Position numbers and translations under genes: made by a program. From a virus (taxonomy: Duplodnaviria > Caudoviricetes), in IMG/VR virus record IMGVR_UViG_3300032038_000016, positions 1-64,000 of that record: DNA of 64,000 bases; one strand, written 5' to 3'. This document shows, one piece after another, positions 5,797-60,735 of this stretch (position 1 is its first letter; each line of letters starts with the position of its first letter). Under the pieces are notes generated by a model. The model had not been told where the DNA came from and did no database searches. It worked only from the letters and a program-made list of their open reading frames with translations.

Positions 5797-7035
5797 ATGA
5801 GAGATTATGTAATTTCATCGATTGATGAAGCATATGAATTTACAAAATTTGATACAGCATTAGCAATTATGGAATGCTATATCAAACAACTTGATATGCA
5901 AATATATTTTGAAGGAGCGGCCACAGCAACAGAGGCTCCTCCTACACAACAACCGGCTGCAGAAACACAGCAAGCAGCTTCACCTGATCCGGCAGCACAG
6001 GCACAAGCAACTGACCAGTCACAGCAACAAATGGGTGGAAATATGAACATAAATCCCAATTCATTGATCCAGGTTCTTATGAAGCTGATTGAAACATTAG
6101 TCGCTGCAACTGAAAAATTTGCACAAGCAACAGCAACACAAGTTGCGATTCAGCAAACAATCAAACAGGAAAATGAAATTGATCAAACCATCGATCAAGC
6201 AATTCAACAAGGTACAATTGATCCGAATGACGACAATTTGGTCAATGAAATTCTAGCTCCTGAAGAAGGTGAAGAACCAGATCCGGAAGATTCAAAACCA
6301 GAAGTTGTTGAGCGAAAGAAGAAGCTTGTGAAATGTGTTCTAGTTGGTGACTTTACAGGTGCTGGTATCTTCTCTCCAGATAGTATGTCAGCATTGCAGC
6401 AAGGTGTTGAAATTCTGAATGGATTGGTAAGCGAGTCAAAGCATATGAGAGGCAAGGATCCAAATGCAGTTTGCCAAGAAATCACCGCACAATTGAAGAA
6501 GAACAATGAAGCATTAGCAGCACTTCACGGGAACAATGCAAGAACCCAAGTGGATAAGTTTGGCACAACACAAAAGATGAGCAAGAAATCATTCCGTGAA
6601 GCTGAACAACAAGCAACAAAGATGATTGCAAAAATGTCTTCTCAATTGAAAACGATTGAGCAGATGTTTAAGCAGGGTGGATTCTGGAATGCTCTTGGTA
6701 ATGCTTTCACGAAGGATCTCGGTGCAAAAACAATTGCTACTGATGCTTATAAAGAATTGAAAAAGACTTTATCGGTTATTAGAAACACAATGTCATATGT
6801 TATGAGTGATATCAAACTTGTTAGAAAAGTAAACAAGAAGATGCTGAAGAAGTTAAATGTTATTATCGTCAACGGTAATAATGGTGTTCAAGCATATGCA
6901 AACAGAAAAGGTGTTGCAAAACAAGGTATCACAACACAGATGCTGGAAAGAAAAGATAAGAAACGTGTTTCTACATTTGATGGTAATGGTTATATGGATG
7001 CTAGTGCAGCTTATAATGCTGCTCCTGCTGTATGA
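5797..7035 (+). CDS. Putative internal head protein with shared N-terminal leader motif
   Basis: IDEAYEFTKFDTALAIMECYIKQ motif, then YFE|GA, a Q/A/P-rich linker and a basic helical C-terminus. Confidence 0.6.
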   Translation: MRDYVISSIDEAYEFTKFDTALAIMECYIKQLDMQIYFEGAATATEAPPTQQPAAETQQAASPDPAAQAQATDQSQQQMGGNMNINPNSLIQVLMKLIETLVAATEKFAQATATQVAIQQTIKQENEIDQTIDQAIQQGTIDPNDDNLVNEILAPEEGEEPDPEDSKPEVVERKKKLVKCVLVGDFTGAGIFSPDSMSALQQGVEILNGLVSESKHMRGKDPNAVCQEITAQLKKNNEALAALHGNNARTQVDKFGTTQKMSKKSFREAEQQATKMIAKMSSQLKTIEQMFKQGGFWNALGNAFTKDLGAKTIATDAYKELKKTLSVIRNTMSYVMSDIKLVRKVNKKMLKKLNVIIVNGNNGVQAYANRKGVAKQGITTQMLERKDKKRVSTFDGNGYMDASAAYNAAPAV

Positions 7036-7205
7036 TGAATCAAAAATATAATCAGTTAATCACTCCACGAGAAGAAGCAAAACCACTAAAACAGCAAAAA
7101 GAATCGTGGGTGAAAGTCATTGGGATATTTGATAAATCAACTGATCGACCAATTGATCAACTCAAATATCCTAATGAAACAAAAGAAGATAACGATGAAT
7201 CATAG
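7032..7205 (+). CDS. Small hypothetical protein (57 aa, not in ORF track)
   Basis: ATGA overlap with the upstream stop; MMNQKYNQLITPREEAKPLKQQKESWVKV...; ends at a hairpin. Confidence 0.5.
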   Translation: MMNQKYNQLITPREEAKPLKQQKESWVKVIGIFDKSTDRPIDQLKYPNETKEDNDES

Positions 7206-7232
7206 ATGTGTCGGGGCGATGCCCCGACATAT
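7206..7232 (+). terminator. Intrinsic terminator
   Basis: ATGTGTCGGGGC-GAT-GCCCCGACATAT followed by TTCTTTT. Confidence 0.75.
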
Positions 7233-7274
7233 TTCTTTTCGTTTGAACAATAATTTACAAAACAATTTAAGGAG

Positions 7275-7577
7275 ATGATTTGTATGATTACTGTTATCAA
7301 GGGTGGGAATATGACCCATGAAGAACAGAAAATTTACGAAGACTATATCAAGGAAAAATTCCCAAGATTTAATATTACCGAGTTAACCATCACACTGGAA
7401 ACTGATGAAAGAACTGGTGAAGAGATGGTGAAGCTCGAATATCATTATGAGAACAAGCCGGAGTTTAATATTCCATTTGAGAGAATCCGTAGAATTTCTG
7501 GTTATTTATCTCAGATTCCAAGAATCAACCAAGCAAAACAAGCTGAAATATCAGAACGATTGAAGCACAATACCTGA
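7275..7577 (+). CDS. Stand-alone NrdD C-terminal-like glycyl-radical domain protein
   Basis: FERIRRISGYL...NQAKQAEISERLKH matches the C-terminal glycyl-radical loop of class III ribonucleotide reductase; only about 100 aa. Confidence 0.75.
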   Translation: MICMITVIKGGNMTHEEQKIYEDYIKEKFPRFNITELTITLETDERTGEEMVKLEYHYENKPEFNIPFERIRRISGYLSQIPRINQAKQAEISERLKHNT

Positions 7578-9080: not shown

Positions 9081-9166
9081 AATATACTTCTCCTTTCGGA
9101 ATTAAAATTGTAATATCACGTTAAATAAAACCCATCAATAATTTATCATTGTTAGGAGATGATCAT

Positions 9167-37734: not shown

Positions 37735-39077
37735 GTAGTCATCATAGTTTGTTGCTGATTTTGATTTGCCGTTGGTTGCACATGAATTTGTCCTCTGGCA
37801 ACAGCTCTTCTTTGTGGTGGCATATTGGCATCTTCTGGATGTGCAGTAATCCATTTTTGCCAAGCATCCCATTTTAATTTCCATATATCATATTTATTAA
37901 TATCTTCAACGATTTTGAATATCGTATCATTTGTGAATAATATACAAGATTTAATTGTATTGGAAATTGTTTGAATAAAGGATAATAGAATAGAAACTGT
38001 TTTCTTTTCCATATTCTTTCCAATAAAATTTATGTTATTATATTTTGACGTATCTGTGATTTCTTTGTATTTTTGCATGTATGCTTGGATGTCTGCGATT
38101 GCTCGCATGGTTATTTTCATTGCATTACTTGGTGCTGTTTTGTCTTGTATCTTAAAGAAACCAAATCCCTGTTCACGTTCAATTCCCATCAGAATTCCTT
38201 CTTTTGCAGATTGACTCCATCCATTGTTATGAATAACTTGATCTTGTTCAATAGTAGTTTGCAATTGTTGTAATAGCTTATCAATATCGCCATGGTGAAC
38301 ACCTTTTGCAGATTTATCATATAATAAATTAAGAAGTGCCAATACATTGTCTAGCATTCGATGTGTTGAGTAATCGAATTCCGAAGATCTCTCGAAGAAT
38401 GTGTGTAAAAATACATTGACTTGTTCCATAATCCTTTGAGTGTCATCTTGTGGATTTGATATCGCACTTGTTAATTTTGGAATCTTGATATCTGTCAATT
38501 GTTTGCTCTCATCTAGATTTAGCCACATACTTTGGAAGTCACCTGGGTTTTCGGGTTTGACTACTGGCACATTATTTTCTGCAGTAGCAGGTTGTGATGT
38601 ATTTTGTTGCTGTGTACCAGTAGTTGTTTGTTGCGTATTAGTAGTCGCTTGTTGTTGCTGTTGTGCTTGTTGTTGCTGTTGTGCTTGTTGTTGCTGAACT
38701 TGTGATTGAGCCTTTTCAAAGAACTTCATTAACAAGTTACAAATTACTTTAATGATATTGGCGATTGTTGTCATGTATTTAAGCATGATAGTTGCATCAG
38801 GATTATTAGTTGTTTGCATTTGCTGATTTTGGTTCATAGTTGGAGCTGCATTGTTTTGTGCTGTATTTGTTGTGGTTTGTTGTTGTGATGGTGCTGATGA
38901 TTGCTTCACTTGTGATGATTGTTGCATCGCTGGTTGTGACGCAGCTGTTCCATCTTCTAATATCAATGCATAATAGTCAGACGTATCTGCTTCTTTTAAT
39001 AAGTATCTAGTTTGTTCCAATAATACTTCTGTAGAAGAAACTGCACATAGAAAATCTAATTCATTCAAATCAATCAT
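37731..39077 (-). CDS. Gln-rich putative internal head protein with leader motif
   Basis: LDFLCAVSSTEVLLEQTRYLLKE, then ILE|DG. Confidence 0.65.
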   Translation of the reverse strand: MIDLNELDFLCAVSSTEVLLEQTRYLLKEADTSDYYALILEDGTAASQPAMQQSSQVKQSSAPSQQQTTTNTAQNNAAPTMNQNQQMQTTNNPDATIMLKYMTTIANIIKVICNLLMKFFEKAQSQVQQQQAQQQQQAQQQQQATTNTQQTTTGTQQQNTSQPATAENNVPVVKPENPGDFQSMWLNLDESKQLTDIKIPKLTSAISNPQDDTQRIMEQVNVFLHTFFERSSEFDYSTHRMLDNVLALLNLLYDKSAKGVHHGDIDKLLQQLQTTIEQDQVIHNNGWSQSAKEGILMGIEREQGFGFFKIQDKTAPSNAMKITMRAIADIQAYMQKYKEITDTSKYNNINFIGKNMEKKTVSILLSFIQTISNTIKSCILFTNDTIFKIVEDINKYDIWKLKWDAWQKWITAHPEDANMPPQRRAVARGQIHVQPTANQNQQQTMMTT

Positions 39078-40695: not shown

Positions 40696-42407
40696 TGGCC
40701 CACCTTCTTTTCGTTGTCATCATCATTTTTCTTTTTATTTGTCACAACATCACGAGATTCAAGGTTTTCATCTAATTTGGATGCTTTCTTTTCACTCTTC
40801 TTGGATTGTTTATCTAACTTTTCTTGAGTTGCAGAATTGCGTTTACCCAGGCCATAGTCGATACAAACCCATCTGTTTTTATCAGAAGACCACATAACAT
40901 TCCCATCATTAAAGTCGGAGATCACTAATCTTAATTCTGGATGACGTTTTGTGAAATCGGCATACTTCTGTTTTATTTCATTCAGAATCAATAAGTCGGG
41001 ATGTTTTCCGACACGATCCACAACACGTTCCATTGCAACAATTGCATCTTCATAATAGGAATTTGTAATCATTGCGGAAATGTCAATCATCTCTTGTTCT
41101 TTAGAGCGTTTTAAGAATTCTGCAAAACGAATCTCATTCTTGTTTGATGTGATACCAATACCACTAATCGCAATCTTTAAGATTTCTTTCTTATTATCAA
41201 TTGGGAAGAAAATACAACGAGTCTGTCCTGCAACCGGTTTGTATGTTGCTGCACTTCCACGAATCTGTTCATTTGCAATTAACCATGTATTGTATGCAAT
41301 ATACTTTGGTGGAATGCCATTCTGCACACATTCATACACAAACTTGGATAATACGTCACGATCATCAATAGAGTTCATATATTTCAAATCAATCAAATGC
41401 ACATTTTGCATTGCGTTTGTTAATGACGTTAAACCAAATTGAATATGTTCTGTGATGGATACGAGATTATTTAATGAATCAATCACACGAGAATCTACAT
41501 CATCCAAATTGTTATTACCATTCTGAGTAAAGTCTAGCATCTCTTCCAACTTATTAACTCTTGATTGGAATGCTGTTAATTCTTTCATTGTCATTTTTGT
41601 GTGTGATAAATCACGTAATGCATTTGTTTTTGCATCTGCTTTCTTCATTAATGTTCTAACTTTTTTGTGATAATCCATTGGATCCAAATCACCATTATTA
41701 TTCACAAATTTAAAACCTTGAACAATTAATTCTACAAACTCATCCATTTCACTTGGATTCTTTACAAAGAAAATTAATGCATTGGTATAAACAAATAATG
41801 ATGCGGTTGCTTTTACACCTTCGCCTTTATCTGCAATGGCATGTGCTTTTCCTTTATCATCTTTTACATAGTTAACACCCATCAAATCAATCATAAAGGA
41901 ATCATCATCATTAAATTCTTCAATCAAATATGCAGAATTGATTAATTCGATTTCTGATTGTGTTTCTTTTCCTTTGAATGGTAACTTCACACGTGCTTCT
42001 GATTCTGCTAACTTCTTATTTGGATCAAGCTTTTTACGTAATGCTTCATGTGCAATCGCAGAGGCACTTTTCTTTGCACCACTTTTTCGAAACTTACCAC
42101 TCATTCCTTGCATGACATCTTTTACATGTCCTAACAATGTTTTGATAACGGTAATATTTCTTTTGGATAAGGAACGCAATCTCATGAACAGATTTCCACT
42201 TTTTCTTTTTACTGTGGATAAAGCTTTTCCAATTCCTTCTTGGTATAAAATGTCAACTGGTTCCCGATGATGCTTGATACAAAGATCCAAGTATTCCCAT
42301 TCCTTATAAGATTCCATCACCATCTGTTCCAGAATCTTTTGTTGGGAACGTAATTTTGTTTCTTCCAATTCATCAACTTTTTCCATGATTAAATCTTCAA
42401 TCTTCAT
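40692..42407 (-). CDS. Protein-kinase-like enzyme with virion leader motif (paralogue 2)
   Basis: GQTRCI, ILKIA, NKNEIR, MERV, SDFNDGNVM, IDYG; clear paralogue of 39070-40695. Confidence 0.8.
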   Translation of the reverse strand: MKIEDLIMEKVDELEETKLRSQQKILEQMVMESYKEWEYLDLCIKHHREPVDILYQEGIGKALSTVKRKSGNLFMRLRSLSKRNITVIKTLLGHVKDVMQGMSGKFRKSGAKKSASAIAHEALRKKLDPNKKLAESEARVKLPFKGKETQSEIELINSAYLIEEFNDDDSFMIDLMGVNYVKDDKGKAHAIADKGEGVKATASLFVYTNALIFFVKNPSEMDEFVELIVQGFKFVNNNGDLDPMDYHKKVRTLMKKADAKTNALRDLSHTKMTMKELTAFQSRVNKLEEMLDFTQNGNNNLDDVDSRVIDSLNNLVSITEHIQFGLTSLTNAMQNVHLIDLKYMNSIDDRDVLSKFVYECVQNGIPPKYIAYNTWLIANEQIRGSAATYKPVAGQTRCIFFPIDNKKEILKIAISGIGITSNKNEIRFAEFLKRSKEQEMIDISAMITNSYYEDAIVAMERVVDRVGKHPDLLILNEIKQKYADFTKRHPELRLVISDFNDGNVMWSSDKNRWVCIDYGLGKRNSATQEKLDKQSKKSEKKASKLDENLESRDVVTNKKKNDDDNEKKVGQ

Positions 42408-42413: not shown

Positions 42414-44606
42414 TCACCTCTTCTTTTTCATATGATAAGATTCCGTTACAAGAATGCCATTATTCAGAATCAAGTTTTGAACATGTTTATCCAAATCACC
42501 AGATTCACCCGGATCGAATGTTGTTTTATTATAATCATCCTTGATATTCGTCTTTTCAATATTGGAATAATTTTTAACGATCCATTCACAATATTTCTTT
42601 TGTTCGGGTGAAATCTTTTCTTTGCCACTTAAAATTTTTTTTGCAATTTGATATGCAGCATAATTGCGTTCACCAAATGTTGGATATGATGATAACGTAA
42701 ACTGTCTTAATTCTTTTTCCAATTCACTTAAGTATTTTAATTTATCTTCTGAAATATCATTTGCGGTAAATTCACGTTTGTTATAGCCGTATGTGAAAGA
42801 TAATGGTAAATTGTACATACCAGCAAACATATCACAATAGTATTCTTCTTTGTTTGCCCGATTCAAATAATCAGCGTAAGCTTGAGCTAATGCGGCATCC
42901 GCTTTATTTGGTAATAATTTGATCATGGGTAATCCGATGACTGAACCAACACCGGTACAACATAATGCAGAAGCCAAACGATTTAGCATTCTCGAACCTT
43001 TAGGATTCTTGAGATATTTATTACCCTTCTTAACAGAATCGGGTATCTTCTTTTCATATTCTTTCAAAGCCTTCTCATATTGAATGATCAAAGCCTCTAC
43101 TTGGCGATCTGCTTCACTCAATGATTTAGACTCTAATGCAGATTCTACTTTATCTAATTCTTGTTTATTATTTGCTAATGCGGAAATGTAACAAAGTTTC
43201 TTTACTAACTTTTTCTTTTCCATACGATTCAAGTCTTTACCATCAACAGATACTGTGTCGGAAAACATTTCAAAGATCTTACGTCTTTCTTCCGCATTTT
43301 CTGTTGACAATGCCATTGTCATTGCAGAAGTAGAAGTGTAGATAAACATATTTGTTCGACAACGAATTGCATTGACAATGTTATGGAATATTTCATGACA
43401 AAGTGATGCGCACATGAATTGACCAAACAGATCTTTATCGGTGTTCTTTTGCATCTCTTCGTCAATCGCATTATTCACACATACAATTGTAATTGGTAAT
43501 CCATTTAACTGGAAACCTTTTGATTTTGATACATAGATTTTGTCAACGTGATGATGATCAAATGTGTATGTAAACAAAGCATTTGTATTTTCTGTTGAAT
43601 CTTTAAAATGAATTGCTAATTTACAATCGAATTGTTTTTCCAAACAATTGATTCCCTCTTTGTAATGAGGAGATGAAACAAACTTAGTTAAATTCATTTC
43701 ACCTTTACCAGCTTCTTTTTGTTCATCACGAGCTTTGTTAAAGCATTGAATTGCTTTTGTAATGTATGTATTATCAAACTTCATATGCTTGACATCTTCT
43801 GGATTTACCTTCGCTTTTTGATCTTCAATTTCTTCTTCTAATGTAAATGATTCTGTTGGACGAACAAAATCAAATCCTTGTTCTTGTAATAATTCATATC
43901 CAAGAAAATCAGTATCATGATAATGTGACATTAAATCAATATGAAATGCACTTTCTTGAATATCAGAAGAAACATCTGTTGGAGTTGGTTCATTAGAATT
44001 CATGGTCTTTTCATCGATATTAGCATCTGTTTTTAACTCAATATCATCTTCTTCATTGAAGTATCCATTCTTCTTTCTTGTCATCGCTTCTGGATTATAC
44101 ATCGGAACCTTCATGGCATTTTTTAATTCATCTGCTTTGAGATGTGCTTCCTTTGTATTTGCCATATCCATTAATCCAGAATCATATACAAGAATTTCGT
44201 CTCCATTAGAATCTAAGTATCGGCCAATGACTTTCCCTTTGGCGGGGTTTGCATTTGTTGCGATATGATGTTCTTCTCTTCCTAATTTTGTTTCTATATC
44301 ATGTCTCTCATCTAATTTATCATTAATACGTTGAGAGATATGATCCAACACACCACCGATGGAACAAACAATTGCTTTCGTGTTCGGACGGACATCTGGT
44401 GGTGACATAATTTTATCATCGACTACCTTTAATGATGTTAATCCAGGTTGTGCCATGATATGTGTTGGGGCAATACCATACATTGCCCCAACACATTCTA
44501 ATGCAGTGATCATATCTGGTGATTCCGATACAATCTTTTTGATTTTGGATTTTGCTGTTTCATTAAAGGAATCGATATCAATTGTATCTACTTGATATTG
44601 TTCCAT
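42414..44606 (-). CDS. Zincin metallopeptidase-domain virion protein
   Basis: LCHEIFHNI...KEEYYCDMFA...YPT; IQES/PTES/VTES putative maturation sites. Confidence 0.7.
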   Translation of the reverse strand: MEQYQVDTIDIDSFNETAKSKIKKIVSESPDMITALECVGAMYGIAPTHIMAQPGLTSLKVVDDKIMSPPDVRPNTKAIVCSIGGVLDHISQRINDKLDERHDIETKLGREEHHIATNANPAKGKVIGRYLDSNGDEILVYDSGLMDMANTKEAHLKADELKNAMKVPMYNPEAMTRKKNGYFNEEDDIELKTDANIDEKTMNSNEPTPTDVSSDIQESAFHIDLMSHYHDTDFLGYELLQEQGFDFVRPTESFTLEEEIEDQKAKVNPEDVKHMKFDNTYITKAIQCFNKARDEQKEAGKGEMNLTKFVSSPHYKEGINCLEKQFDCKLAIHFKDSTENTNALFTYTFDHHHVDKIYVSKSKGFQLNGLPITIVCVNNAIDEEMQKNTDKDLFGQFMCASLCHEIFHNIVNAIRCRTNMFIYTSTSAMTMALSTENAEERRKIFEMFSDTVSVDGKDLNRMEKKKLVKKLCYISALANNKQELDKVESALESKSLSEADRQVEALIIQYEKALKEYEKKIPDSVKKGNKYLKNPKGSRMLNRLASALCCTGVGSVIGLPMIKLLPNKADAALAQAYADYLNRANKEEYYCDMFAGMYNLPLSFTYGYNKREFTANDISEDKLKYLSELEKELRQFTLSSYPTFGERNYAAYQIAKKILSGKEKISPEQKKYCEWIVKNYSNIEKTNIKDDYNKTTFDPGESGDLDKHVQNLILNNGILVTESYHMKKKR

Positions 44607-49769: not shown

Positions 49770-52310
49770 ATGAATAAGTTAAAAGCCGATATCATGCTAC
49801 AGCAGCAAGGATCATATTATCAAGAAGAAGATATTGATGATGTTGAAAACAAAGATATCGATATCAAGCCGAAGAGAAAGAAAAAGAGAAGTAAGAAAGT
49901 TTCTTTTAATGATGAATGTGGTGATGGTGCAAATATTGGAACTAAAGAAGAGTGTGGTGATACTGACATTAGCTCTGTTCAAGAAACATCAAAACCTCGT
50001 AGAAAGAAGAAACCCAAGAAGGATATTACAATTGATACAGAAATTGATGATGTTGAGGAATCAGCTGTTCAAGCAACCAATAGAATGTCCATGAATGTTG
50101 GATCCAACAATATCACATTCGCAGGAAAAGATAATGAATGTGGACCAATCAAATATCATCTTTCGGATGGTGATGATGCAATGGCATCTCAAGATGTTGA
50201 TACAGATATTGACACTACCACAGAAGGATTTGGTTCTGGTTTAAAAGAAACTGTGAAACAGCCATTCAAGCAAGGTAAGAAAATTCTCAAAAGACAAATG
50301 GATTATGTCGGTGATGCAATTGATGTTTTTAAAGATGATCTGAAAGACATCAAGGATGATGGTATCAAGGGTGTATTGAATTTACCAGTTAGGCATTATA
50401 AGAGAGCTGTTGATACTGTGCAAAAGCACGATATCAAAAGAGCACATGATATCATGGATAACATGCAAGAATGGGAAGACGCATTTACATCAGACGGAAA
50501 AGTTGACAAGGCTGGCAAGAAAGTAAAGCGTGATTTAAAGAAAGCCGCAAGAAAGGCTTCTGATAAGATCGAAGATATGACAGAAGCAGCGGAAGTTGGT
50601 GTGGAAGATCAAACATCTGAATTTGATACTGAATGTGGTGATGGTTGTAATACAACAGGATTTAAAAAAGAATGCGGTGATTCTAAGGTTGGTTTCGATC
50701 AAGAATCAGCAAAACCTCGTAAAAAGAAAAAGAAGATTCCAAAAATTACTGAAGATGATATTGATTTCGAAGATGAAGCATCCGTTGAAGCAACCAATCG
50801 AATGTCAGCATCAGCGGGTTCTTCTAATATTACAACAACTGGATCTGGCAATAAAATTGAATCAATTGATTATACAAATGAAGATGTTGATCCGACTACT
50901 GAAACAACAGAGGGTGATGCATACAAGCCAGGTTATCACGACGAATATGCTGTGTATTTGATTAATCAAATTGATGAAGAACGATTACATTCCGAAAGAC
51001 AAGCATTAACGTCTATGATTGAATCCATTTATAAGGAATACGCAATGAGTGGGTTTGAAATGTCCGAAGATGCATTTATGGAAATGGATTCTGACGAAAA
51101 TGAAACAGAAGATGAATATTACCAAGAACGATTCTTCGGTGGAACAGGTAAGCAAGTAGAAGGTTTGGCTAAACCATTTGTCAAGGGTGCTAAGAAATTG
51201 AATGATATGCGTCATGGTGTTGGCAAGCCTGGTATCATCAGAAATGTGATTCATCGTACAAGTAAGGATTTGAAGAAGGGTGGTATTCTGTATAAATTAC
51301 TTACATGGCCATTCTTAGTTGTCAAGAATCTTGTACAAACAATTTATCACAAAGCAAAGTCATTTATTCAATACAAAGGGTTGTTATTAGGCATTGAAGT
51401 TAAGGTGAATCGTGAAATCTCTAAGATCAAGAAACGTGGTCGTGATTTACCAAAAATGGCTGTTGCAGGTGGTATTGGTTATGTAGCAACAGCAGCAGCT
51501 TCTATTGCAAAGGGTGAAGGTCTGCCATTAAATCCTATTGATTTCATCACAAGTGAAGGTGCTAAGATGATTAATGAGCTTGGTCGTGATACCATGATTC
51601 GCGCATTAACTTCTAAATTAGCAGATGCAATCGAGGATTCTCCAGAAGCAATCCGTGCTGTGTTAGCAAAGAAAAATGCAGTAAAAGGTAAGTTAACACC
51701 CGAAGCTGGTAAAAATTCCCCACCCATTATTACAATGAACAACAGCAAGATTACTGTTGAGAATTTGATTAACATGAAGGGTGTTGAGCAGTTGTTAAAT
51801 GATATTGACAACTGGGCTGATTTGGCAGAAACAACAGTTGTGAATGCAAAAGCTGGAGATGAAGCTACAATTAGAAGTTGTCTCACCAAAGCAAAGGATC
51901 TGGAATCCAGATATCTGAAAGATGGAAAACTTGACTTATCTGCAATCTTCAATAAGAAATCTGGGGCTGTTAAGATCTCCGAATTTTACGATGAATTATC
52001 TTCCAAACTGACAGAAAAGGCTCATGTCCTCGAGAAGGGATTAAATAAGTTGACCGAACTTGAGGGATCAATTAAGGAAGGTAACATTAGTATTACAGAA
52101 GATACACAAAAGACATTATCCGAGATTAATGTAGCATTACAACACGCATGCAATGCATTTGTAGAAGCAATCGAATCAATCGAAGATCTTGGTAAGTATG
52201 TCATGAGTACAATGGAAACTTATCTTGATTGCTTAAAGGAAACTTCCAGTTCCATGGTAAAGGGTAAGAACTCAAAAGCTCCTACTACTGCTACTGAGGA
52301 TGAAGAATGA
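49770..52310 (+). CDS. Putative internal head protein with repeated acidic/basic N-terminal region
   Basis: Duplicated ECGD-ECGD-KPRKKK-ATNRMS blocks; internal copy of the leader motif (IDEERLHSERQALTSMIESIYKE). Confidence 0.65.
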   Translation: MNKLKADIMLQQQGSYYQEEDIDDVENKDIDIKPKRKKKRSKKVSFNDECGDGANIGTKEECGDTDISSVQETSKPRRKKKPKKDITIDTEIDDVEESAVQATNRMSMNVGSNNITFAGKDNECGPIKYHLSDGDDAMASQDVDTDIDTTTEGFGSGLKETVKQPFKQGKKILKRQMDYVGDAIDVFKDDLKDIKDDGIKGVLNLPVRHYKRAVDTVQKHDIKRAHDIMDNMQEWEDAFTSDGKVDKAGKKVKRDLKKAARKASDKIEDMTEAAEVGVEDQTSEFDTECGDGCNTTGFKKECGDSKVGFDQESAKPRKKKKKIPKITEDDIDFEDEASVEATNRMSASAGSSNITTTGSGNKIESIDYTNEDVDPTTETTEGDAYKPGYHDEYAVYLINQIDEERLHSERQALTSMIESIYKEYAMSGFEMSEDAFMEMDSDENETEDEYYQERFFGGTGKQVEGLAKPFVKGAKKLNDMRHGVGKPGIIRNVIHRTSKDLKKGGILYKLLTWPFLVVKNLVQTIYHKAKSFIQYKGLLLGIEVKVNREISKIKKRGRDLPKMAVAGGIGYVATAAASIAKGEGLPLNPIDFITSEGAKMINELGRDTMIRALTSKLADAIEDSPEAIRAVLAKKNAVKGKLTPEAGKNSPPIITMNNSKITVENLINMKGVEQLLNDIDNWADLAETTVVNAKAGDEATIRSCLTKAKDLESRYLKDGKLDLSAIFNKKSGAVKISEFYDELSSKLTEKAHVLEKGLNKLTELEGSIKEGNISITEDTQKTLSEINVALQHACNAFVEAIESIEDLGKYVMSTMETYLDCLKETSSSMVKGKNSKAPTTATEDEE

Positions 52311-52334
52311 TAGTTTGTATTGTTATTGTAGGAG

Positions 52335-52844: not shown

Positions 52845-52853
52845 ACGAGGAAG

Positions 52854-53747
52854 ATGGTGATAAAAATGTATGAAGCTGATATCCTATCAAAGATTGACGA
52901 ATTGGAATTGACCAATTTAGAAGCAAAAATCCAAACATATGATGCTGTGGGCGACCAATTGCTTAAGGAATATTACATGTATTCTTCAGGAGTTGTTCAA
53001 GAAGGTGCAGTAACAAATGGTGTTAGAGATGATGGTAGAGTTCCTACATTAAATAAGATTGCAAACTGGTTTGGTAGAATGGTTACACAAATTGCATCAT
53101 GGTTAGCTAAAAGACATATTGACCGAACTTTGAAAAAAATCTATGAATCTGATCGTTATTCTGATAATGATATTTTCGAAGGATTGTTTGTTGATAACGA
53201 TTGGTATCGTGATAACGTAATCAATGCTAGAACATATCTGAATGAACAGATTCAAAGGTACATGGTTAACGAAGCGGGTGGATCTAGAGATCCTGGATTA
53301 AATAATGTCTTTAGAGATCGCAGAGCTTTCACATCTGCGGTTCGTGGTGTTGACAAACTTCGCTCTGAATTACATGAATCCCTGTCGGATATTCGACATA
53401 TTACAGCGATTAATGATAACACCCATCACGTCAAAGACAAAAGAAAACAAGATGTGTTTAACTTCATGAGATCTGTTGCAGAAGATAATGAACATCTAAC
53501 TGATATGGTTAGAGCAATGCGTAGATCCATTCCGTATGTAAAAGAAGTTGCAGATCGATTAAGTGCAAATGATTTAAATTTGAAAAAGAACAATGAAGCT
53601 GTCAAAGATCAGTATGTAAAATTTGTATCAGATACAACGCGATGTGCGTTGATGCTTGCACAGATTCAAGCAGTCATTTGTGATCGAATCAGACATACGA
53701 TTGGTCGTGTCCATAACAATGGAGAGGGCGGTGACGAACCAGCATGA
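52854..53747 (+). CDS. Putative internal head protein with leader motif
   Basis: LELTNLEAKIQTYDAVGDQLLKE...VQE|GA, then an amphipathic W-rich helix. Confidence 0.65.
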   Translation: MVIKMYEADILSKIDELELTNLEAKIQTYDAVGDQLLKEYYMYSSGVVQEGAVTNGVRDDGRVPTLNKIANWFGRMVTQIASWLAKRHIDRTLKKIYESDRYSDNDIFEGLFVDNDWYRDNVINARTYLNEQIQRYMVNEAGGSRDPGLNNVFRDRRAFTSAVRGVDKLRSELHESLSDIRHITAINDNTHHVKDKRKQDVFNFMRSVAEDNEHLTDMVRAMRRSIPYVKEVADRLSANDLNLKKNNEAVKDQYVKFVSDTTRCALMLAQIQAVICDRIRHTIGRVHNNGEGGDEPA

Positions 53748-54805
53748 TTAATGTAGAATCAATGGTTGATCGTTCTCAAGTAGAAGTATTACTTGCATTA
53801 GGTGATAACTTATTAAAAGAACAAGCTTATGTAGAATCTTTCTACAATGAAGCCGCAAGTGAAGTTGGTTTATTTCAAAAGGCATTAGATTTTATTTCAA
53901 GAACCATTACAAAATTTCTTGCATGGTTACGTAAAAAGAAATTGGACAGATGTAAAGAACGATTGACAAAGCTCAAAGATAATGTAAAAGTTAATGACCA
54001 ATTTGCTGATCCAAAAACGATGTACACATATTTTTATCCAGACAATTGGTTTGGTCCCGAGGTAATGAAACCTTGTCGTGAATTACATGAATTATCATTT
54101 GCAAAAATAATTGCAAGTGGTCAAGTAAAAGATATTCATAAGATTTTGGTGAATCGTGATATGCCAAAATTAGAGCATATTTGTCGAATATTAAAAGAAG
54201 CTGTTAGTAAAGTCAACAAGTTTTCTGTTCCAGCAGGACCTGTTAATGTGAGTCACGAGGGAAAAGGTAGTATTGAAACAGCCATTAAGTTCATTGATCA
54301 TTGTTCCACGACGGTTTATCAAGATTTACAAAAGTCATTAGCTTCTATTAAGGTTATTAAAGATTATGAGAAAGGGAAGAATCTTCAAGATAGCAAAGCT
54401 GTTTCTGATTCTTGGACACACGCCATGACACTTCTTGCACAAGCATATTTGAATGAGATGGCAATTGCAATTGATGTTGAGAAGACACTCACAGCAGGTG
54501 CTACTGTTCGCAGAATTTCTTCCATGGGTAAACAAAAAGTTTATAATGAATTGGAATTGAATGATTTATACACCGCGATTAATGAAATCTTTAATAATGA
54601 TATTAATCCAGCATCCAAAGCAGTTTATGCCAATACAGTTAAGATGGGTGAAAATGCCATTCGTGTTGATATTGTATATTCAGCAAAAGATGGAACAAAT
54701 AAAGTTGTGTCATTAAATGCAAAGAAATTAGCAGATGCAACATCACGTTTCATCAATAAGGGTGGAGTACAAGGTCGCCCCATCACTAAGGGGATGTTGA
54801 AATGA
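53744..54805 (+). CDS. Putative internal head protein with leader motif
   Basis: VESMVDRSQVEVLLALGDNLLKE...YNE|AA. Confidence 0.65.
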   Translation: MINVESMVDRSQVEVLLALGDNLLKEQAYVESFYNEAASEVGLFQKALDFISRTITKFLAWLRKKKLDRCKERLTKLKDNVKVNDQFADPKTMYTYFYPDNWFGPEVMKPCRELHELSFAKIIASGQVKDIHKILVNRDMPKLEHICRILKEAVSKVNKFSVPAGPVNVSHEGKGSIETAIKFIDHCSTTVYQDLQKSLASIKVIKDYEKGKNLQDSKAVSDSWTHAMTLLAQAYLNEMAIAIDVEKTLTAGATVRRISSMGKQKVYNELELNDLYTAINEIFNNDINPASKAVYANTVKMGENAIRVDIVYSAKDGTNKVVSLNAKKLADATSRFINKGGVQGRPITKGMLK

Positions 54806-55542: not shown

Positions 55543-55556
55543 TATAGAAGAAAGGA

Positions 55557-56075: not shown

Positions 56076-56078
56076 GAG

Positions 56079-57281
56079 GTGATCCATATGTACATTATGG
56101 AACAAGAACTCACCGAATATGACATCATGTCATGGTTTCAAGAAGCAGTGGCAGATCCAGATTCTCCATTACGGAAAAAGATTATTGATCCGATTGTGCA
56201 GGTGTTAGAAACACCTGCTGGTCGGAAAGAATATATTAAATATGGAACCGAGTTTCTTGATTCTAATGCGGAAATGTTGGCAAAAGAATTCCCAACAAAA
56301 CGTGTATCTTATCCAAGAATGTATGTTGATCGAATATTGGATTTGTTTGGTTTCACCAGTCAACAATTGAAAGCTGATTTTAAAGAATTGGCAAAAGAGG
56401 TTAATGATAAAACGGATTTCAAAACATTAACATCCACGCCAACAAACATCATTCATGCGATTGCATTATTTTATTCCGATGCAGTACAGCATGCACAATT
56501 ACGTGAATCAGCAAAACAACAACTTGGTTTAACCACATACGGTTTGGTGTTCAATCACCAATTTCCAGATGCAGAACCGGATGTTGCGACGATGACGTAT
56601 ACTTACATGCATTTGGACAATTCATGGGGATTGGTTAAGAGTGAGAATGTTATGAATTGGATCGGTCAAACAACCGAAACATCATTCGCATTTTGGAGAT
56701 CAAAATTATCATTGAATATGAGTACGAAAACACTGATTGATTTCTTGAATCGTGTTCGTTCATCATTCCAACAGAATATGCGTACATTAGCCCGTCGCTA
56801 TTATCAAGATATTGCTGATAAGAATCGTGTTGGTGATGATTTAATTGGTGATGAAGATCATGTTGCAACATCAAATACTACAACATTACGAAACAATCTT
56901 GTTCGTTTAATTACAACAGGTGATCGTGATTATAAGACAAAAAGCAACTTGTATAAAGCTACCGCAGAGCAAAAGAATGTTCGTGTGGATGATTTATATG
57001 AATTGGCACAACGTGTTGAAACAAAAGATATTGCGAACATTATTGATTTAATCTTTTATGTGTTTATTGTAAAAGAAAATCATACCGTTGATGAGATCAA
57101 TACATCAGCATATATTTCTAGAATCACCAAAATGCCAACTGCGATTGATCGTGCAATTGCGGGGAAACCTGTGATTGATCCATTTGTGAAAAAATATAAA
57201 TGTACCGATTTATTGGCAAAGGCATACATTTGCTTATTAGCAACATTTATCATTATGAAAATTAATCAAGTGAAGAAGTGA
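56079..57281 (+). CDS. Hypothetical (probably virion) protein
   Basis: 400 aa in the head operon; FQE|A near the N-terminus. Confidence 0.7.
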   Translation: MIHMYIMEQELTEYDIMSWFQEAVADPDSPLRKKIIDPIVQVLETPAGRKEYIKYGTEFLDSNAEMLAKEFPTKRVSYPRMYVDRILDLFGFTSQQLKADFKELAKEVNDKTDFKTLTSTPTNIIHAIALFYSDAVQHAQLRESAKQQLGLTTYGLVFNHQFPDAEPDVATMTYTYMHLDNSWGLVKSENVMNWIGQTTETSFAFWRSKLSLNMSTKTLIDFLNRVRSSFQQNMRTLARRYYQDIADKNRVGDDLIGDEDHVATSNTTTLRNNLVRLITTGDRDYKTKSNLYKATAEQKNVRVDDLYELAQRVETKDIANIIDLIFYVFIVKENHTVDEINTSAYISRITKMPTAIDRAIAGKPVIDPFVKKYKCTDLLAKAYICLLATFIIMKINQVKK

Positions 57282-57282
57282 G

Positions 57283-58395
57283 GTGACGACGATGATTGAT
57301 GATACAGTGTTTAAATCCGAAATAAATGTTTTACTAAAAATGGGTGAATACTATAGTAAGCAAATTGTTATGGAATCCGAATTAGTTACACCTGTCCCAA
57401 CATCGGTAGATTCTGTTTCAAAGTGGAATCAATTCGTCAATTGGGTGACGAGATGTATTAAAACAATTCTTGCTAAGATTAGTAAAAAACGACTGGAGAA
57501 ACAAATTAATGATTTGACGTCGAAAAGTTTAAATGGTAAAGAATATCGTATCGATGCATCAACACTTCGAACACTTAATAATTTGATTGGCATTGGTGGA
57601 CGAATGCATGTGAATCCATACGGATATCAATATGATTTCAAGAATCCATCATTTGATAAAAATGATGGGAAATTGTATCAACAACGTGCGGATTATTTAA
57701 CACAACATCGTTTCAAACCAATCGAAAGGTCTGGAACACTTCGAACATTATCTGCTGACGAACTTCGAAAATATCTTGATGCTATTAAAGATAATAGCAT
57801 CAAAATTGCCAATCGACTTGTTGGAATTCAATCACATATCGATGAAACAAAAAAGCAATTATCTGATGAAGATCGTAAGAATGAGGCATTCCAGCAATAT
57901 GTTAGAATGTTGACATTTGAATTATCCAATGATTTAAAGATTGTACAATTTATCAATGGCTTTTTGGATGCTGCAAAATTATTTTCCAAAAAGGCATCAG
58001 ATGATGGTGTGATCGAAATTGATGGTAATGAATCCACAGAAGATGATAATAAAACAACTGATGACACCAATAATGATGCATCATCAAAATCAGATAATTC
58101 ATTTCCGCCAAAAATAAAATATGAAATTAAGAATGCAATTGTGAAAAAAGCAGTTGACGGATTTGTATTTAAAAAGCATACAAAATGTGAAGCTGTTTAT
58201 GCAAAATTACAATCTGATGGAGACACGCTACTTGTTCAATATGATTTAAACGAGGGAACTGATAATGATCTTCATGAGTATCGATTCTCTGTTAATAAAT
58301 ATAAAAATGAATTCCCATGGAGTATGGTATTAAAAGCCATGGGAATTGATAAAGTAATGAAACAAATCAAGGGTGGCGTTGTTATTAGACGATAG
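57283..58395 (+). CDS. Putative internal head protein with leader motif (paralogue of 59635)
   Basis: IDDTVFKSEINVLLKMGEYYSKQ; VSKWNQFVNWVTR and LSDEDRKNEAFQQYV shared with 59635. Confidence 0.7.
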   Translation: MTTMIDDTVFKSEINVLLKMGEYYSKQIVMESELVTPVPTSVDSVSKWNQFVNWVTRCIKTILAKISKKRLEKQINDLTSKSLNGKEYRIDASTLRTLNNLIGIGGRMHVNPYGYQYDFKNPSFDKNDGKLYQQRADYLTQHRFKPIERSGTLRTLSADELRKYLDAIKDNSIKIANRLVGIQSHIDETKKQLSDEDRKNEAFQQYVRMLTFELSNDLKIVQFINGFLDAAKLFSKKASDDGVIEIDGNESTEDDNKTTDDTNNDASSKSDNSFPPKIKYEIKNAIVKKAVDGFVFKKHTKCEAVYAKLQSDGDTLLVQYDLNEGTDNDLHEYRFSVNKYKNEFPWSMVLKAMGIDKVMKQIKGGVVIRR

Positions 58396-58412
58396 AAAGG
58401 AGTGATTCATAA

Positions 58413-59615
58413 ATGGATATTATGATATTAGAATATATCGATGATATTGAACATGGTTCTTTGATCAGCGAATATGAAGTAATTCAATCATTATGTGATT
58501 CATATATCAAGCAGATCCATATGAATCAATTTGTTTTGGAAGACGGAGAATCCAAACCAGATGATGGTAAAAAGAAAGATTCCGATAAAGGAAGTACAAG
58601 TAAGCCACCGTCATTCTTAGAAAAAGCAATTAATTTTGTAAAAAGACTTATAGTGAAAATAAGAACAATGATTGGTATGAAACGAGTTGGTGCTTTTCAA
58701 AATATTTACAAAAGAAATTGGGATATGTTTGAAAATAAATATCAAGAGACAATGTATAAAAATATTGATAACCTTGTCTATGTCAAGAGAAAAGAGATAG
58801 TGCATGATGATGGTGTTGAGAAAGAATTAGAATATGATACCGCTGTATATCCAATAAAAGATATCATCGCCATCAAACCAAAATGGATAGAAAATATATA
58901 TAATACACTTGATTCATTTATTAATAACTGCAGTAAATCATTATCCGCTGGAGAAGCAAGTTCATCAAGATTATTATTAACATATTATCATGATATTAAA
59001 TATGATACTCTTGTGAAAAAAATTGAAAGTTACGAATCTAAGATTAATGAAAAATATGAAGAACTTGGTAAACTTGAAAAAGATATGCGTGATAATAGTG
59101 AAAATCCAGAAGTATTGGTTCCGAGATATAAATCTATTCTGGAAAAAATAAACATGCCTGATGCGATAGAGCAAAAGACTAATGAAGAACATGTGTTCGG
59201 TGTTTTTTTTGCTAGAGAGGGTAGCAAACATTTTTCAAAAATAAGGATGATGTATTATTATATCAATGATGCAGAAAAAAGTATAAAAGATGCAAAAGCC
59301 GTAGAAAAACTTTATGGTGAAGAAAAAAATAATGACAACTTATCATTTTTTGCAAAATACATAACAAAATTTATGATTCTCATGCATAAATTTACATTAA
59401 TATTCGTTAAAGTTTTATCAGTATCAGCTTTAGAATTAAAGCATTTATGTAGAAAAATAGGAATAAAGGATATTGGTAAAATAAATACATTTTATGATCC
59501 AAACACACTTGAGGATCATCAATCAAAATATACCGTGGATGACACATACCATACCACTAGAAAAGATCTAAAATCACAAAATGTTAGCAAAAATGAAATC
59601 AGAGCATTCACATAA
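58413..59615 (+). CDS. Putative internal head protein with leader motif
   Basis: IEHGSLISEYEVIQSLCDSYIKQ...VLE|DG. Confidence 0.7.
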   Translation: MDIMILEYIDDIEHGSLISEYEVIQSLCDSYIKQIHMNQFVLEDGESKPDDGKKKDSDKGSTSKPPSFLEKAINFVKRLIVKIRTMIGMKRVGAFQNIYKRNWDMFENKYQETMYKNIDNLVYVKRKEIVHDDGVEKELEYDTAVYPIKDIIAIKPKWIENIYNTLDSFINNCSKSLSAGEASSSRLLLTYYHDIKYDTLVKKIESYESKINEKYEELGKLEKDMRDNSENPEVLVPRYKSILEKINMPDAIEQKTNEEHVFGVFFAREGSKHFSKIRMMYYYINDAEKSIKDAKAVEKLYGEEKNNDNLSFFAKYITKFMILMHKFTLIFVKVLSVSALELKHLCRKIGIKDIGKINTFYDPNTLEDHQSKYTVDDTYHTTRKDLKSQNVSKNEIRAFT

Positions 59616-59634
59616 ATAAAAAGGATGATGAAAC

Positions 59635-60735
59635 ATGAATTATTTGGACATACTTGATTGCCAAACATACGTTTCTGAAGCTGACGTATACATCTCACAA
59701 ATTGAATTGTTACAGAAGCAACTCATCATGGAGCAAGAAACTTCTGATGAAGAGTCTAAACCCCAGAACAGTGATAACCAATCAACAGACATTGGAACAG
59801 CTCCAGATCCAGTTAGTAAATGGCAACAATTTGTCAATTGGATTACTCGTTTGATTATGAAATTACGAACCTTCTTTTTGAGTAAAAAGGTTGAAAAGAG
59901 AATTGGTAAACTTAAAGATGCTCATAGATATTTATCAGACAATGATAAAGACACATATACTGTTCCAGCATATGTAGAGGTGTATTGGAAAGCTGTTAGT
60001 GAAATAATATGGTTGGATGAATTTAGTGTATCAAAGGGAAAAGAATATCAAAAGCATGCAGCTAAAGTCGAAAAAGATATGGCTTTTGTAAAAAAATACA
60101 GCAGTATTCTCACAGGAGAAAACGATAAGACAATTAATATTAATAAACGACAATTCGCACTTGCGCTTACGAATATTGAAAAATTATTCAATAATGCTAA
60201 GGAATATATCAGTAAAGCAAATTCTTCTATTAAATCATTAAAAGGGTCATTATCTGAAGAAGATCGCAAAAGTCCAGCATTTCAGCAATATGTAAATTGC
60301 TTAACAAAAGGCATCCAAATGTATTTCTATTATATGAAATTCATTAATAAAACATTACTTTGGATCATGGACGATGAAAATATTTTCACAGCAACTCTTG
60401 ATGGAAAATATTCACATGATGCAGGTGGTGGAATCTCTGGACTGTATGACGCTGTTGCAATCTCTGCGATTAAAGCGAAAATCTCTCGTGAACAGGTCAA
60501 ATCATACAAAACAATTTATGTGTTCTTGAAGGATAATGACATGCTTGTTGCATTTTCAAATGCAAAAGATGCAAATGATACCGACAATATGAAAGTTGTT
60601 AATTTAACACTTGCCTCTCATTATGATTATAACACATTACCGGATCAGGCAATTAAGCAATTGAAAAACCGTGATATTTTTGCTCTTGATAGTGATAAAG
60701 ATCGAGAGAAAATTATTAGCAGAATGCCGAAATAA
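59635..60735 (+). CDS. Putative internal head protein with leader motif (paralogue of 57283)
   Basis: LDCQTYVSEADVYISQIELLQKQ; VSKWQQFVNWITR, LSEEDRKSPAFQQYV. Confidence 0.7.
   Translation: MNYLDILDCQTYVSEADVYISQIELLQKQLIMEQETSDEESKPQNSDNQSTDIGTAPDPVSKWQQFVNWITRLIMKLRTFFLSKKVEKRIGKLKDAHRYLSDNDKDTYTVPAYVEVYWKAVSEIIWLDEFSVSKGKEYQKHAAKVEKDMAFVKKYSSILTGENDKTININKRQFALALTNIEKLFNNAKEYISKANSSIKSLKGSLSEEDRKSPAFQQYVNCLTKGIQMYFYYMKFINKTLLWIMDDENIFTATLDGKYSHDAGGGISGLYDAVAISAIKAKISREQVKSYKTIYVFLKDNDMLVAFSNAKDANDTDNMKVVNLTLASHYDYNTLPDQAIKQLKNRDIFALDSDKDREKIISRMPK

What the first reader, a model, noticed from the sequence alone, without database searches (positions are those of the whole stretch)
5797..60735. 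Ten dissimilar proteins share an ungapped 23-aa leader motif: candidate capsid-loading address tag
Seen: the pattern Phi-[DE]-x5-[STA]-x3-[VITA]-x9-K-[EQ] occurs with identical spacing near the N-terminus of nine ORFs: 5797 (IDEAYEFTKFDTALAIMECYIKQ), 39077- (LDFLCAVSSTEVLLEQTRYLLKE), 40695- (LDEAMYDSQQNVINTLLEQNHKE), 42407- (LEETKLRSQQKILEQMVMESYKE), 52854 (LELTNLEAKIQTYDAVGDQLLKE), 53744 (VESMVDRSQVEVLLALGDNLLKE), 57283 (IDDTVFKSEINVLLKMGEYYSKQ), 58413 (IEHGSLISEYEVIQSLCDSYIKQ) and 59635 (LDCQTYVSEADVYISQIELLQKQ). It also occurs internally in 49770 (IDEERLHSERQALTSMIESIYKE). It is followed within about 4-25 aa by a Phi-x-E site (YFE, ILE, VQE, YQE, YNE, VME, VLE, IME), and often by a linker and an amphipathic W/F-rich basic helix. 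The downstream cargoes differ (kinases, Gln-rich, helical). Known: T4 internal proteins use a capsid-targeting sequence, and T4 gp21/phiKZ gp175 proteases cut propeptides after Glu; such a protease is encoded at 60758. Inference: a modular, cleavable signal that loads diverse cargo into the prohead for ejection into the host, and potentially an engineerable delivery tag.
Basis: partly seen in the sequence, partly recalled or inferred. Interest (0 to 1): 0.88.

Follow-up and report, generated by a model that had tools for sequence, protein, structure and literature searches.

The report
Shared head-loading leader on jumbo-phage proteins
Thirteen mostly unrelated proteins of an uncultured giant phage, and more than 300 protein families in its relatives, begin with the same helical peptide ending in a protease-type cutting site, which probably acts like phage T4's "load into the head, then clip off" tag, although no experiment has shown this.

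Summary
The regex hits exactly 11 ORFs in the 130.7-kb contig, against 0.72 expected by shuffling. These are the ten listed plus one beyond the window, and profiles add two more.

In the relatives this window's leader is a degenerate copy of a strongly conserved module. It has a 25-residue helix ending in an invariant Lys, then I-[LM]-E with the Glu exactly six residues after the Lys in 122 of 129 families. A second site, I-F-Q-E, follows, then a polar linker and a basic amphipathic helix. A profile of the module finds 300 protein clusters among 1.84 billion, almost all at residues 3-20.

Leader genes sit in structural-gene slots, and they diverge or are replaced while their neighbours stay 50-91% identical. 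In one relative the leader replaces the first 244 residues of a protein that has no leader in this window. Two genes of another relative share 92 identical bases confined to the leader.

The capsid protein, a scaffold-like protein, another head protein and the S80 protease all carry conserved N-terminal Phi-x-E sites.

Some cargoes are paralogues, so "ten dissimilar proteins" overstates the case. Cleavage, packaging and ejection are all inferred.

The scan has noted similar tags in T4-like jumbo phages on other DNA, but not this leader sequence and not beside an S80 protease.

The parts
5797..7035 (+). Leader-bearing gene (412 aa). Leader aa 9-31 = nt 5821-5889. First Phi-x-E is YFE|G at nt 5905-5913. 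A Gln/Ala-rich linker follows, then a hydrophobic helix.
   Evidence: Weak in leave-one-out. A leader variant matching it occurs in relative L035.
37731..39095 (-). Leader-bearing gene (454 aa; the true start is probably 39077). Leader nt 38991-39059. ILE|D at nt 38955-38963. Gln-rich linker.
   Evidence: Weakest member by profile. Its leader and the SDYY..E tail match a canonical leader in L035.
39070..40695 (-). Leader-bearing gene (541 aa) with a kinase-like C-terminal domain. Leader nt 40603-40671. LIE|Q at nt 40588-40596, and VQE|G further on.
   Evidence: foreign-only profile E 1e-3. Invariant K..E..DxxxxN..DYG columns in alignment A6.
40692..42407 (-). Paralogue of the previous gene (571 aa, 42% identical), kinase-like. 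Leader nt 42300-42368. YQE|G at nt 42237-42245.
49770..52310 (+). 846-aa protein with an internal leader (aa 401-423 = nt 50970-51038), followed by MSE|D, FME|M and YYQE|R. The N-terminal 400 aa are charged and contain an internal repeat.
   Evidence: In orthologues the leader is internal at residues 206-431, while the leader-to-C-terminus length stays 445-472 aa.
52854..53747 (+). Leader-bearing gene (297 aa). Leader nt 52902-52970. VQE|G at nt 52995-53003. Conserved helix VPTLNKIANWF.
   Evidence: (A5).
53744..54805 (+). Leader-bearing gene (353 aa). Leader nt 53753-53821. YVE|S at nt 53828-53836, then YNE|A.
57283..58395 (+). Leader-bearing gene (370 aa). Leader nt 57295-57363. VME|S at nt 57367-57375. 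Amphipathic helix aa 47-80 (nt 57421-57522).
   Evidence: A4; AlphaFold2: helix 2-26, disordered 27-46, helix 47-80.
58413..59615 (+). Leader-bearing gene (400 aa). Leader nt 58446-58514. VLE|D at nt 58533-58541.
   Evidence: foreign-only profile E 5e-6.
59635..60735 (+). Leader-bearing gene (366 aa), paralogue of 57283. Leader nt 59653-59721. IME|Q at nt 59725-59733.
60758..61600 (+). Prohead protease of MEROPS/Pfam family S80 (phiKZ gp175 type). It has an invariant N-terminal C-F-[IV]-Q-E|A and a conserved C-terminal IVVE|Q.
56079..57281 (+). Conserved head-module protein without a leader. Its N-terminus carries YIME|Q and SWFQE|A, a second, short type of putative propeptide.
42414..44606 (-). 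730-aa HExxH protein with no leader. A paralogue in relative L012 carries the leader in place of residues 1-244.
   Evidence: (E 1e-52; L012 residues 53-509 align with window residues 245-722).

Best explanation
The motif is the core of an N-terminal propeptide module carried by internal head proteins, probably ejected ones, in a lineage of uncultured jumbo phages. These phages have an S80 prohead protease and a split multisubunit RNA polymerase.

Proposed mechanism:
1. In the precursor, the 25-residue amphipathic helix docks the protein onto a component of the assembling prohead core. This step is inferred and the partner is unknown.
2. The S80 protease then cuts after the Glu of the fixed Phi-x-E sites that end the helix: I-[LM]-E, then I-F-Q-E, and often V-I-M-E. 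This step is inferred from sequence.
3. Cutting frees a mature protein that begins with a polar linker and a conserved basic amphipathic helix, and that stays in the capsid with the DNA.

Because the module is short and self-contained, recombination can place it on new cargo. Leader genes therefore form a fast-turning set that includes kinase-like, zincin-like and helical proteins.

Shown: the motif, its fixed position, the fixed sites, its spread, cargo turnover and leader swapping.
Inferred: binding, cleavage, packaging and ejection.
For: Motif specificity and N-terminal position:
- 11 regex hits against 0.72 expected.
- Leave-one-out and foreign-only profiles recover the members.
- 300 clusters at E<=1e-3 among 1.84 billion proteins, and about 144 of the best 149 start at residues 3-20.

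Site placement:
- The Glu lies exactly 6 residues after the invariant Lys in 122 of 129 families.
- Phi-x-E density is 0.10-0.135 per residue at K+0..9 and K+20..29, against a background of about 0.027. It falls to 0.004-0.013 over the linker and helix.

The same kind of site is conserved at other head-protein N-termini:
- Major capsid protein, SWFQE|Q, in 22 orthologues.
- Scaffold-like 206-aa protein, invariant F..[VI]ME|A.
- The 56079 family.
- The protease itself, FIQE|A.

Protease family: S80, above the Pfam cut-off.

Genomic context: leader genes lie only among structural genes, in this contig and in a complete 231-kb relative. Whole relatives carry 6-9 copies each.

Turnover: backbone genes are 50-91% identical, while leader genes are 22-50% identical or have no match, and the number per slot varies.

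Modularity:
- The leader replaces 244 N-terminal residues of an HExxH cargo.
- 92 identical bases are confined to the leader in two genes whose products are otherwise unlike.
- hhalign finds only the leader shared between the 57283 family and the kinase-like family.

Structure: the AlphaFold2 model shows leader helix 2-26, a disordered stretch 27-46 that holds the site, and helix 47-80.

Precedent: T4 internal proteins are diverse and share only a capsid targeting sequence (PMC3012670). Giant-phage propeptides have been proposed to act likewise (PMC5694885, PMC10052503).
Against: - There are no proteomic, virion or expression data, so cleavage and packaging are untested.
- The lineage has no cultured member. 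tblastn finds none of the tested leader-bearing proteins among 50,697 cultured-phage records.
- Part of the similarity comes from common descent. There are two clear paralogue pairs. 72-80 of 133 cargoes chain into one supercluster under iterative profile searches. Weak Pfam and fold leads point to phiKZ internal head proteins.
- One family carries the leader 200-430 residues inside the protein, so an N-terminal position is not obligatory.
- The inferred P3 preference (I/F/V/L) differs from the A/S/G-x-E measured for the only studied S80 proteases (PMC10052503).
- A sister subclade with the same protease (50-55% identical) has no detectable leader.
Confidence: 0.6

Rival explanations
1. The leader is simply the best-conserved part of one large, fast-diverging paralogue family of inner-head (inner-body or core-building) proteins. 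It serves as a structural or oligomerising helix that builds the core, and is not a portable address tag. The apparent cargo diversity would then be divergence beyond recognition.
For: - 72-80 of 133 cargoes link into one supercluster under iterative profile searches, even at 1e-10.
- The 57283 and 52854 families align at 96.8% probability over 232 columns.
- Paralogue pairs exist: 39070/40692 and 57283/59635.
- PF12699 (phiKZ internal head proteins) matches 3 of 117 relatives weakly.
- Weak fold matches of the 57283 model are dominated by virion proteins of phiKZ-like phages and AR9.
- The helix has a heptad-like hydrophobic pattern.
Against: - The HExxH cargo occurs with the leader in one genome and with an unrelated 244-residue N-terminus in this one.
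- The kinase-like family shares only the leader with the others, and its only family match (phrog_4301, a 225-position profile) covers only its C-terminal part.
- A 92-base identity stops abruptly at the end of the leader.
- With the first 110 residues removed, only two pairs of the 13 proteins stay above 35% hhalign probability.
- PF12699 scores are below the cut-off in this genome.
Confidence: 0.22
2. The leader is a pro-domain that keeps packaged enzymes or membrane-active helices inactive, or folded correctly, until the protease removes it. On this reading it provides zymogen control or an intramolecular chaperone, and targeting is done by another part such as the amphipathic helix.
For: - Some cargoes look like enzymes: kinase-like motifs and HExxH.
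- The conserved amphipathic helix lies directly after the cleavage region, and it is at least as well conserved as the leader within orthologue groups.
- In the model the leader helix is separated from the body by a disordered stretch.
Against: - The same leader heads many proteins with no enzyme signature.
- One inhibitory peptide is unlikely to fit so many different cargoes.
- In T4 the equivalent short peptide is sufficient for targeting (PMC9026906).
Confidence: 0.08
3. The leader addresses the proteins to something other than the prohead, for example a phage-built compartment, the host membrane or a secretion route. On this reading the Phi-x-E sites are incidental.
For: Some relatives of phiKZ sort proteins into a phage nucleus (general knowledge). 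The amphipathic helix could bind membranes.
Against: - The sites are position-fixed, and they match sites at the N-termini of the capsid protein, the scaffold-like protein and the protease.
- All leader genes lie in structural modules next to the protease and head genes.
- No signal-peptide-like hydrophobic core is present in the leader.
Confidence: 0.05

Closest known systems
Capsid targeting sequence (CTS) of phage T4 internal proteins IPI, IPII, IPIII and Alt, removed by the gp21 prohead protease
   Same: A short N-terminal peptide is shared by otherwise diverse head-internal proteins and ends in a hydrophobic-x-Glu site. The cargo genes are poorly conserved between related phages while the tag is kept (PMC3012670, PMC9026906). 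The capsid, scaffold-like and protease proteins of this phage also carry short N-terminal Phi-x-E ends, as T4 head proteins do.
   Different: - The T4 CTS is about 10-20 residues (PMC5694885). Here the module is 30-55 residues, with a 25-residue helix, two or three nested sites and a conserved downstream amphipathic helix.
- I saw no resemblance to the T4 CTS by eye. The T4 sequence was recalled from memory, and no formal alignment was run.
- The protease is Pfam S80, not the T4 gp21 family.
- The phage belongs to the lineage with multisubunit RNA polymerases, not to T4-like phages.
- Targeting and cleavage are experimentally shown for T4 and not here.
Propeptides of head and ejection proteins of phiKZ, 201phi2-1 and SPN3US, cut by S80 proteases gp175 and gp245
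   Same: The protease family is the same. Many internal head proteins carry N-terminal propeptides that were proposed, but not proven, to act like a CTS. Paralogue families of internal proteins occur. In SPN3US the paralogues gp53 and gp54 share identical N-termini (PMC5694885, PMC10052503).
   Different: - Measured sites there are A-x-E or S/A/G-x-E. Here P3 is I/F/V/L.
- Propeptides there are mostly 111-254 residues, and the papers I could read report no consensus shared across unrelated proteins.
- Here one consensus spans 300 or more protein clusters.
- Sequence membership in PF12699 is not met.
CTS-like leader tags noted earlier by this scan in uncultured T4-like jumbo phages (for example e1-5467528 and e1-5651009)
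   Same: The idea is the same: short shared N-terminal tags ending in [ILV]-x-E on many unrelated proteins of giant phages.
   Different: Those are described as T4-related phages with 14-25-residue tags. No look-alike of this leader was found in the scan's index by sequence. I did not check those reports.

Membership tests
T4-type capsid targeting sequence system | One N-terminal peptide shared by otherwise unrelated head-internal proteins | tested here: met
   13 proteins in the contig and 300 clusters in the database. By BLASTP the cargoes fall into 82 groups out of 133. Only the leader is shared between the 57283 family and the kinase-like family. Location inside the head is not shown.
T4-type capsid targeting sequence system | The tag ends in the cleavage motif of the prohead protease (hydrophobic-x-Glu), and the motif recurs on other head proteins | tested here: met
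   Met at the sequence level only. The Glu is at K+6 in 122 of 129 families. Conserved N-terminal sites occur in the capsid, scaffold-like, 56079 and protease proteins.
T4-type capsid targeting sequence system | The tag is actually removed by the protease | not testable with these tools
   Needs an in vitro cleavage assay or virion mass spectrometry.
T4-type capsid targeting sequence system | The tag is necessary and sufficient to load a protein into the prohead | not testable with these tools
   Needs a cultured phage or a reconstituted assembly system.
T4-type capsid targeting sequence system | The protease belongs to the T4 gp21 family | tested here: not met
   Pfam reports only Peptidase_S80. 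PHROGs gives phrog_3014 at 3.7e-12 and phrog_207 at 1.2e-8, both named head maturation protease.
phiKZ-like internal head proteins (Pfam PF12699) | Match to PF12699 above the curated cut-off of 27 bits | tested here: not met
   Best score in this genome is 16.9 bits. Three of 117 relatives match at E of 1e-4 or weaker.
phiKZ-like internal head proteins (Pfam PF12699) | An S80 prohead protease is encoded in the same genome | tested here: met
   PF20034 at 32.8 bits against a cut-off of 23.4. His and Ser residues are invariant in 23 orthologues.
phiKZ-like internal head proteins (Pfam PF12699) | Cleavage motif with a small residue at P3 (S/A/G-x-E or A-x-E) | tested here: not met
   P3 at the conserved sites is I (159), F (117), V, L or Y. 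The motif for SPN3US is taken from PMC10052503.
Peptidase S80 (protease gene 60758-61600) | Profile match above the cut-off and a conserved His/Ser pair | tested here: met
   Which His and which Ser are catalytic was not assigned.
Protein-kinase-like fold (cargo of 39070 and 40692) | Lys, Glu, DxxxxN and D-[FY]-G motifs in order, plus a kinase fold | tested here: inconclusive
   The motifs are invariant in six sequences, and protein-atlas leads point to kinase-like families. No Pfam or PDB sequence match was found, and the AlphaFold2 model was too poor to search with (pLDDT 51).

The most novel reading that the evidence does not exclude
The leader, its nested cleavage sites and the anchor helix form a self-contained, recombination-competent loading cassette. 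A lineage of giant phages with phiKZ-type S80 proteases uses it to pack an ever-changing set of ready-made effectors (kinase-like, zincin-like and others) into the capsid for delivery with the DNA. This would be the first defined consensus targeting signal for giant phages outside the T4 group, and it could carry foreign proteins.
Probability: 0.35. Interest if true: 0.8.

Novelty: new variant of a known kind. Interest (0 to 1): 0.62.

Why it matters
How giant phages sort dozens of proteins into the head is an open question. For phiKZ-type phages, propeptides are suspected to do the targeting, but no shared signal has been defined. This lineage shows a clear consensus signal on hundreds of protein families, and it gives a predicted protease specificity that differs from that of the studied S80 enzymes.

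Both points can be tested with synthetic genes, using recombinant protease and tagged substrates, without culturing the phage. The fast turnover of cargo behind a fixed leader marks these genes as candidates for injected host-takeover or counter-defence proteins. The leader profile also gives a simple way to list such cargo in metagenomes.

Tried and rejected
- Complex prediction of the leader with the scaffold-like 206-aa protein gave no verdict, so it counts neither for nor against binding.
- The AlphaFold2 model of the kinase-like protein 40692 was too poor (pLDDT 51) for a fold search. Sequence and profile searches against solved structures gave nothing.
- megablast of a 10-kb stretch (window 52000-62000) and tblastn of the 61604 ORF, one window leader gene and one consensus-like relative against cultured phages gave no match.
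- Only the capsid protein matches cultured phages: Staphylococcus jumbo phages at 21-23% identity. Their head region shows no shared leader by eye.
- PF12699 membership was tested and not met.
- An internal FFQE in the capsid protein is not conserved, so I dropped it as a site.
- Searches for orthologues of 5797 and 37731 in five relatives found none, or one weak match. The neighbouring genes of that weak match did supply matching leader variants.
- An internal translation start just upstream of the internal leader of 49770 was considered. No Met or start codon is there.
- The phiKZ papers PMC3323674 and PMC3719823 are not held, so I could not check whether they describe a shared propeptide motif.
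- Chance or low complexity as an explanation is rejected by the shuffle test, the position tests and the independent profiles.

Full report
**What the window is.** The window is the first 64 kb of a 130,667-bp viral contig with about 35% G+C. CheckV rates it 48% complete. It encodes:
- pieces of a multisubunit RNA polymerase, at 9149-11113 and 54802-55542;
- a DNA polymerase, a topoisomerase and an endolysin;
- a prohead protease at 60758-61600, which matches Pfam Peptidase_S80, the phiKZ gp175 family, at 32.8 bits against a cut-off of 23.4.

Just beyond the window lie a 952-aa protein, an acidic 206-aa scaffold-like protein and the major capsid protein at 65124-67331 (phrog_20655, 1e-12). The nearest cultured phages are Staphylococcus jumbo phages, with capsid proteins only 21-23% identical. 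IMG/VR holds 28 related contigs of up to 294 kb whose proteases are 50-91% identical.

The regex was fitted to the data, so I ran independent tests:
- Leave-one-out profiles rank the held-out member first among non-training ORFs in 8 of 11 cases.
- A profile built only from 144 foreign proteins ranks six leader genes as the six best of 779 ORFs, each at the right place.
- The weakest members, 5797 and 37731, have close leader variants in a relative.
- Two further members lie at 71625 and 74036.

**The leader in the wider clade.** The window's leaders are degenerate copies of a strongly conserved module. An alignment of 40 leader segments (A1) was searched against 1.84 billion representative proteins. 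It found 300 clusters at E<=1e-3, and about 144 of the best 149 begin at residues 3-20.

The consensus reads I-D-N-I-D-x-V-x-M-E-S-E-M-N-V-L-x-S-L-x-x-S-Y-D-K-A-x-M-I-[LM]-E|N-Y-x-G-D-D-x-x-S-F-x-I-F-Q-E|[SGA], often followed by V-I-M-E|A. A polar or acidic linker comes next, then a basic amphipathic helix of the type ..IIKRILMFIPRLI...

- The Glu of the first site sits exactly six residues after the invariant Lys in 122 of 129 families.
- Phi-x-E density is four to five times background at the two site positions.
- It drops to a fifth of background over the linker and helix.

None of these proteins carries a name in any source. Pfam has no model for the leader.

An AlphaFold2 model of 57283 shows a leader helix at 2-26, a disordered stretch at 27-46 that holds the site, and a confident helix at 47-80.

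**Evidence for cleavage (inferred).** The same type of site is conserved at the N-termini of other head proteins:
- SWFQE|Q in 22 capsid-protein orthologues;
- an invariant F..[VI]ME|A in the scaffold-like protein;
- M-F-F-M-E.. and F-[QV]-E|A in the 56079 family;
- C-F-[IV]-Q-E|A in the protease, together with a conserved C-terminal IVVE|Q.

This pattern mirrors T4 head maturation. The inferred P3 preference (I, F, V, L) resembles T4 and not the A-x-E measured for the S80 protease of SPN3US (PMC10052503).

**Evidence for a head role (context only).** Leader genes lie only among structural genes, both in this contig and in a complete 231-kb relative. None lies in the replication or nucleotide-metabolism blocks. 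Whole relatives carry 6-9 copies each. One sister subclade has none.

**Modularity.**
- In a conserved backbone that is 50-91% identical, leader genes are 22-50% identical or unmatched. Their number per slot changes between genomes.
- A 524-aa protein of relative L012 has the leader fused directly to the domain that forms residues 245-722 of the leaderless 730-aa HExxH protein of this window (E 1e-52).
- Two genes of a complete relative share 92 consecutive identical bases inside the leader. Identity then falls to chance level, upstream DNA is unrelated, and the proteins are alike only in their first 140 or so residues. This looks like recombination confined to the leader.
- The kinase-like pair 39070/40692 shares only the leader with the 57283 family. 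It has invariant K, E, DxxxxN and DYG columns and kinase-type atlas leads. Its only family match (phrog_4301, a 225-position profile) covers only the C-terminal part.

**Limits on "dissimilar".**
- 39070/40692 and 57283/59635 are paralogues.
- The 57283 and 52854 families align at 96.8% probability when the N-terminal module is included.
- 72-80 of 133 cargoes chain into one supercluster under iterative searches.
- Weak Pfam and fold leads point to internal head and virion proteins of phiKZ-like phages, but membership in PF12699 is not met.

Common descent therefore explains part of the pattern. Leader swapping explains the rest.

**The internal copy.** In 49770 and its orthologues the leader lies 205-430 residues inside the protein. 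It follows a charged, repeat-bearing extension of variable length, while the distance from the leader to the C-terminus stays at 445-472 residues. The module therefore does not have to be N-terminal. The extension may be a long propeptide.

**Comparison with what is known.** The closest working analogue is the T4 capsid targeting sequence. T4 internal proteins are diverse and share only that tag (PMC3012670). The tag is sufficient to load foreign proteins (PMC9026906). For giant phages with S80 proteases, the propeptides are suspected to target proteins to the head. The papers I could read describe no shared consensus across unrelated proteins (PMC5694885, PMC10052503). Two phiKZ papers were not available. 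This scan has noted comparable tags in T4-like jumbo phages on other DNA, but nothing with this sequence.

**Verdict.** I class it as a new variant of a known kind, with interest 0.62.

Noticed in passing
window 49914-50129 and 50670-50849: The N-terminal 400 residues of the 846-aa protein contain an internal repeat, ECGD..[VF]-x-Q-E-[TS]..KP[RK]KKK.., each copy followed by an acidic stretch and a Ser/Asn-rich stretch. The length of this extension varies from 205 to 430 residues among orthologues. It may be a long, multiply cut propeptide or a source of small basic peptides.
   Followed up: partly
L030:3017-3829 and L030:4354-5316 (minus strand, relative G002): Two leader genes share 92 consecutive identical bases confined to the leader. 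The flanks are unrelated and the cargoes are unlike. A second pair in L023 shares 38 identical bases just after the leader.
   Followed up: yes
window 42414-44606 (minus) and L012:8359-9933: A HExxH (zincin-like) virion protein has a 244-residue N-terminal extension here, and the short leader in its place in a relative. The window alignment starts right after ...PTES|FTLEE, which may be a processing site.
   Followed up: partly
contig 64474-65094, beyond the window (L029:4474-5094): An acidic 206-aa protein lies between the 952-aa protein and the capsid gene. It has an invariant N-terminal F..[VI]MEA, a Pro/Asp/Gly-rich middle and a conserved helical C-terminal half. By position and composition it is scaffold-like.
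   Followed up: partly
contig 90219-92609, beyond the window (L033:2219-4609, minus): A 796-aa virion structural protein (phrog_23804) has HFFQE|S at residues 178-182. It could be a portal-type protein with a long propeptide. In relative G002 two leader genes are inserted next to its orthologue.
   Followed up: no
loci L025 and L027, record G003: A sister subclade has the same head-gene backbone, with a protease 50-55% identical, but no detectable leader in 240 kb. It keeps the short N-terminal Phi-x-E ends on the capsid, scaffold-like and protease proteins.
   Followed up: partly
window 60758-61600: The protease has a conserved C-terminal IVVE|Q about 40 residues from its end. This fits the C-terminal self-processing reported for related proteases.
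   Followed up: no
I did not examine it.
   Followed up: no
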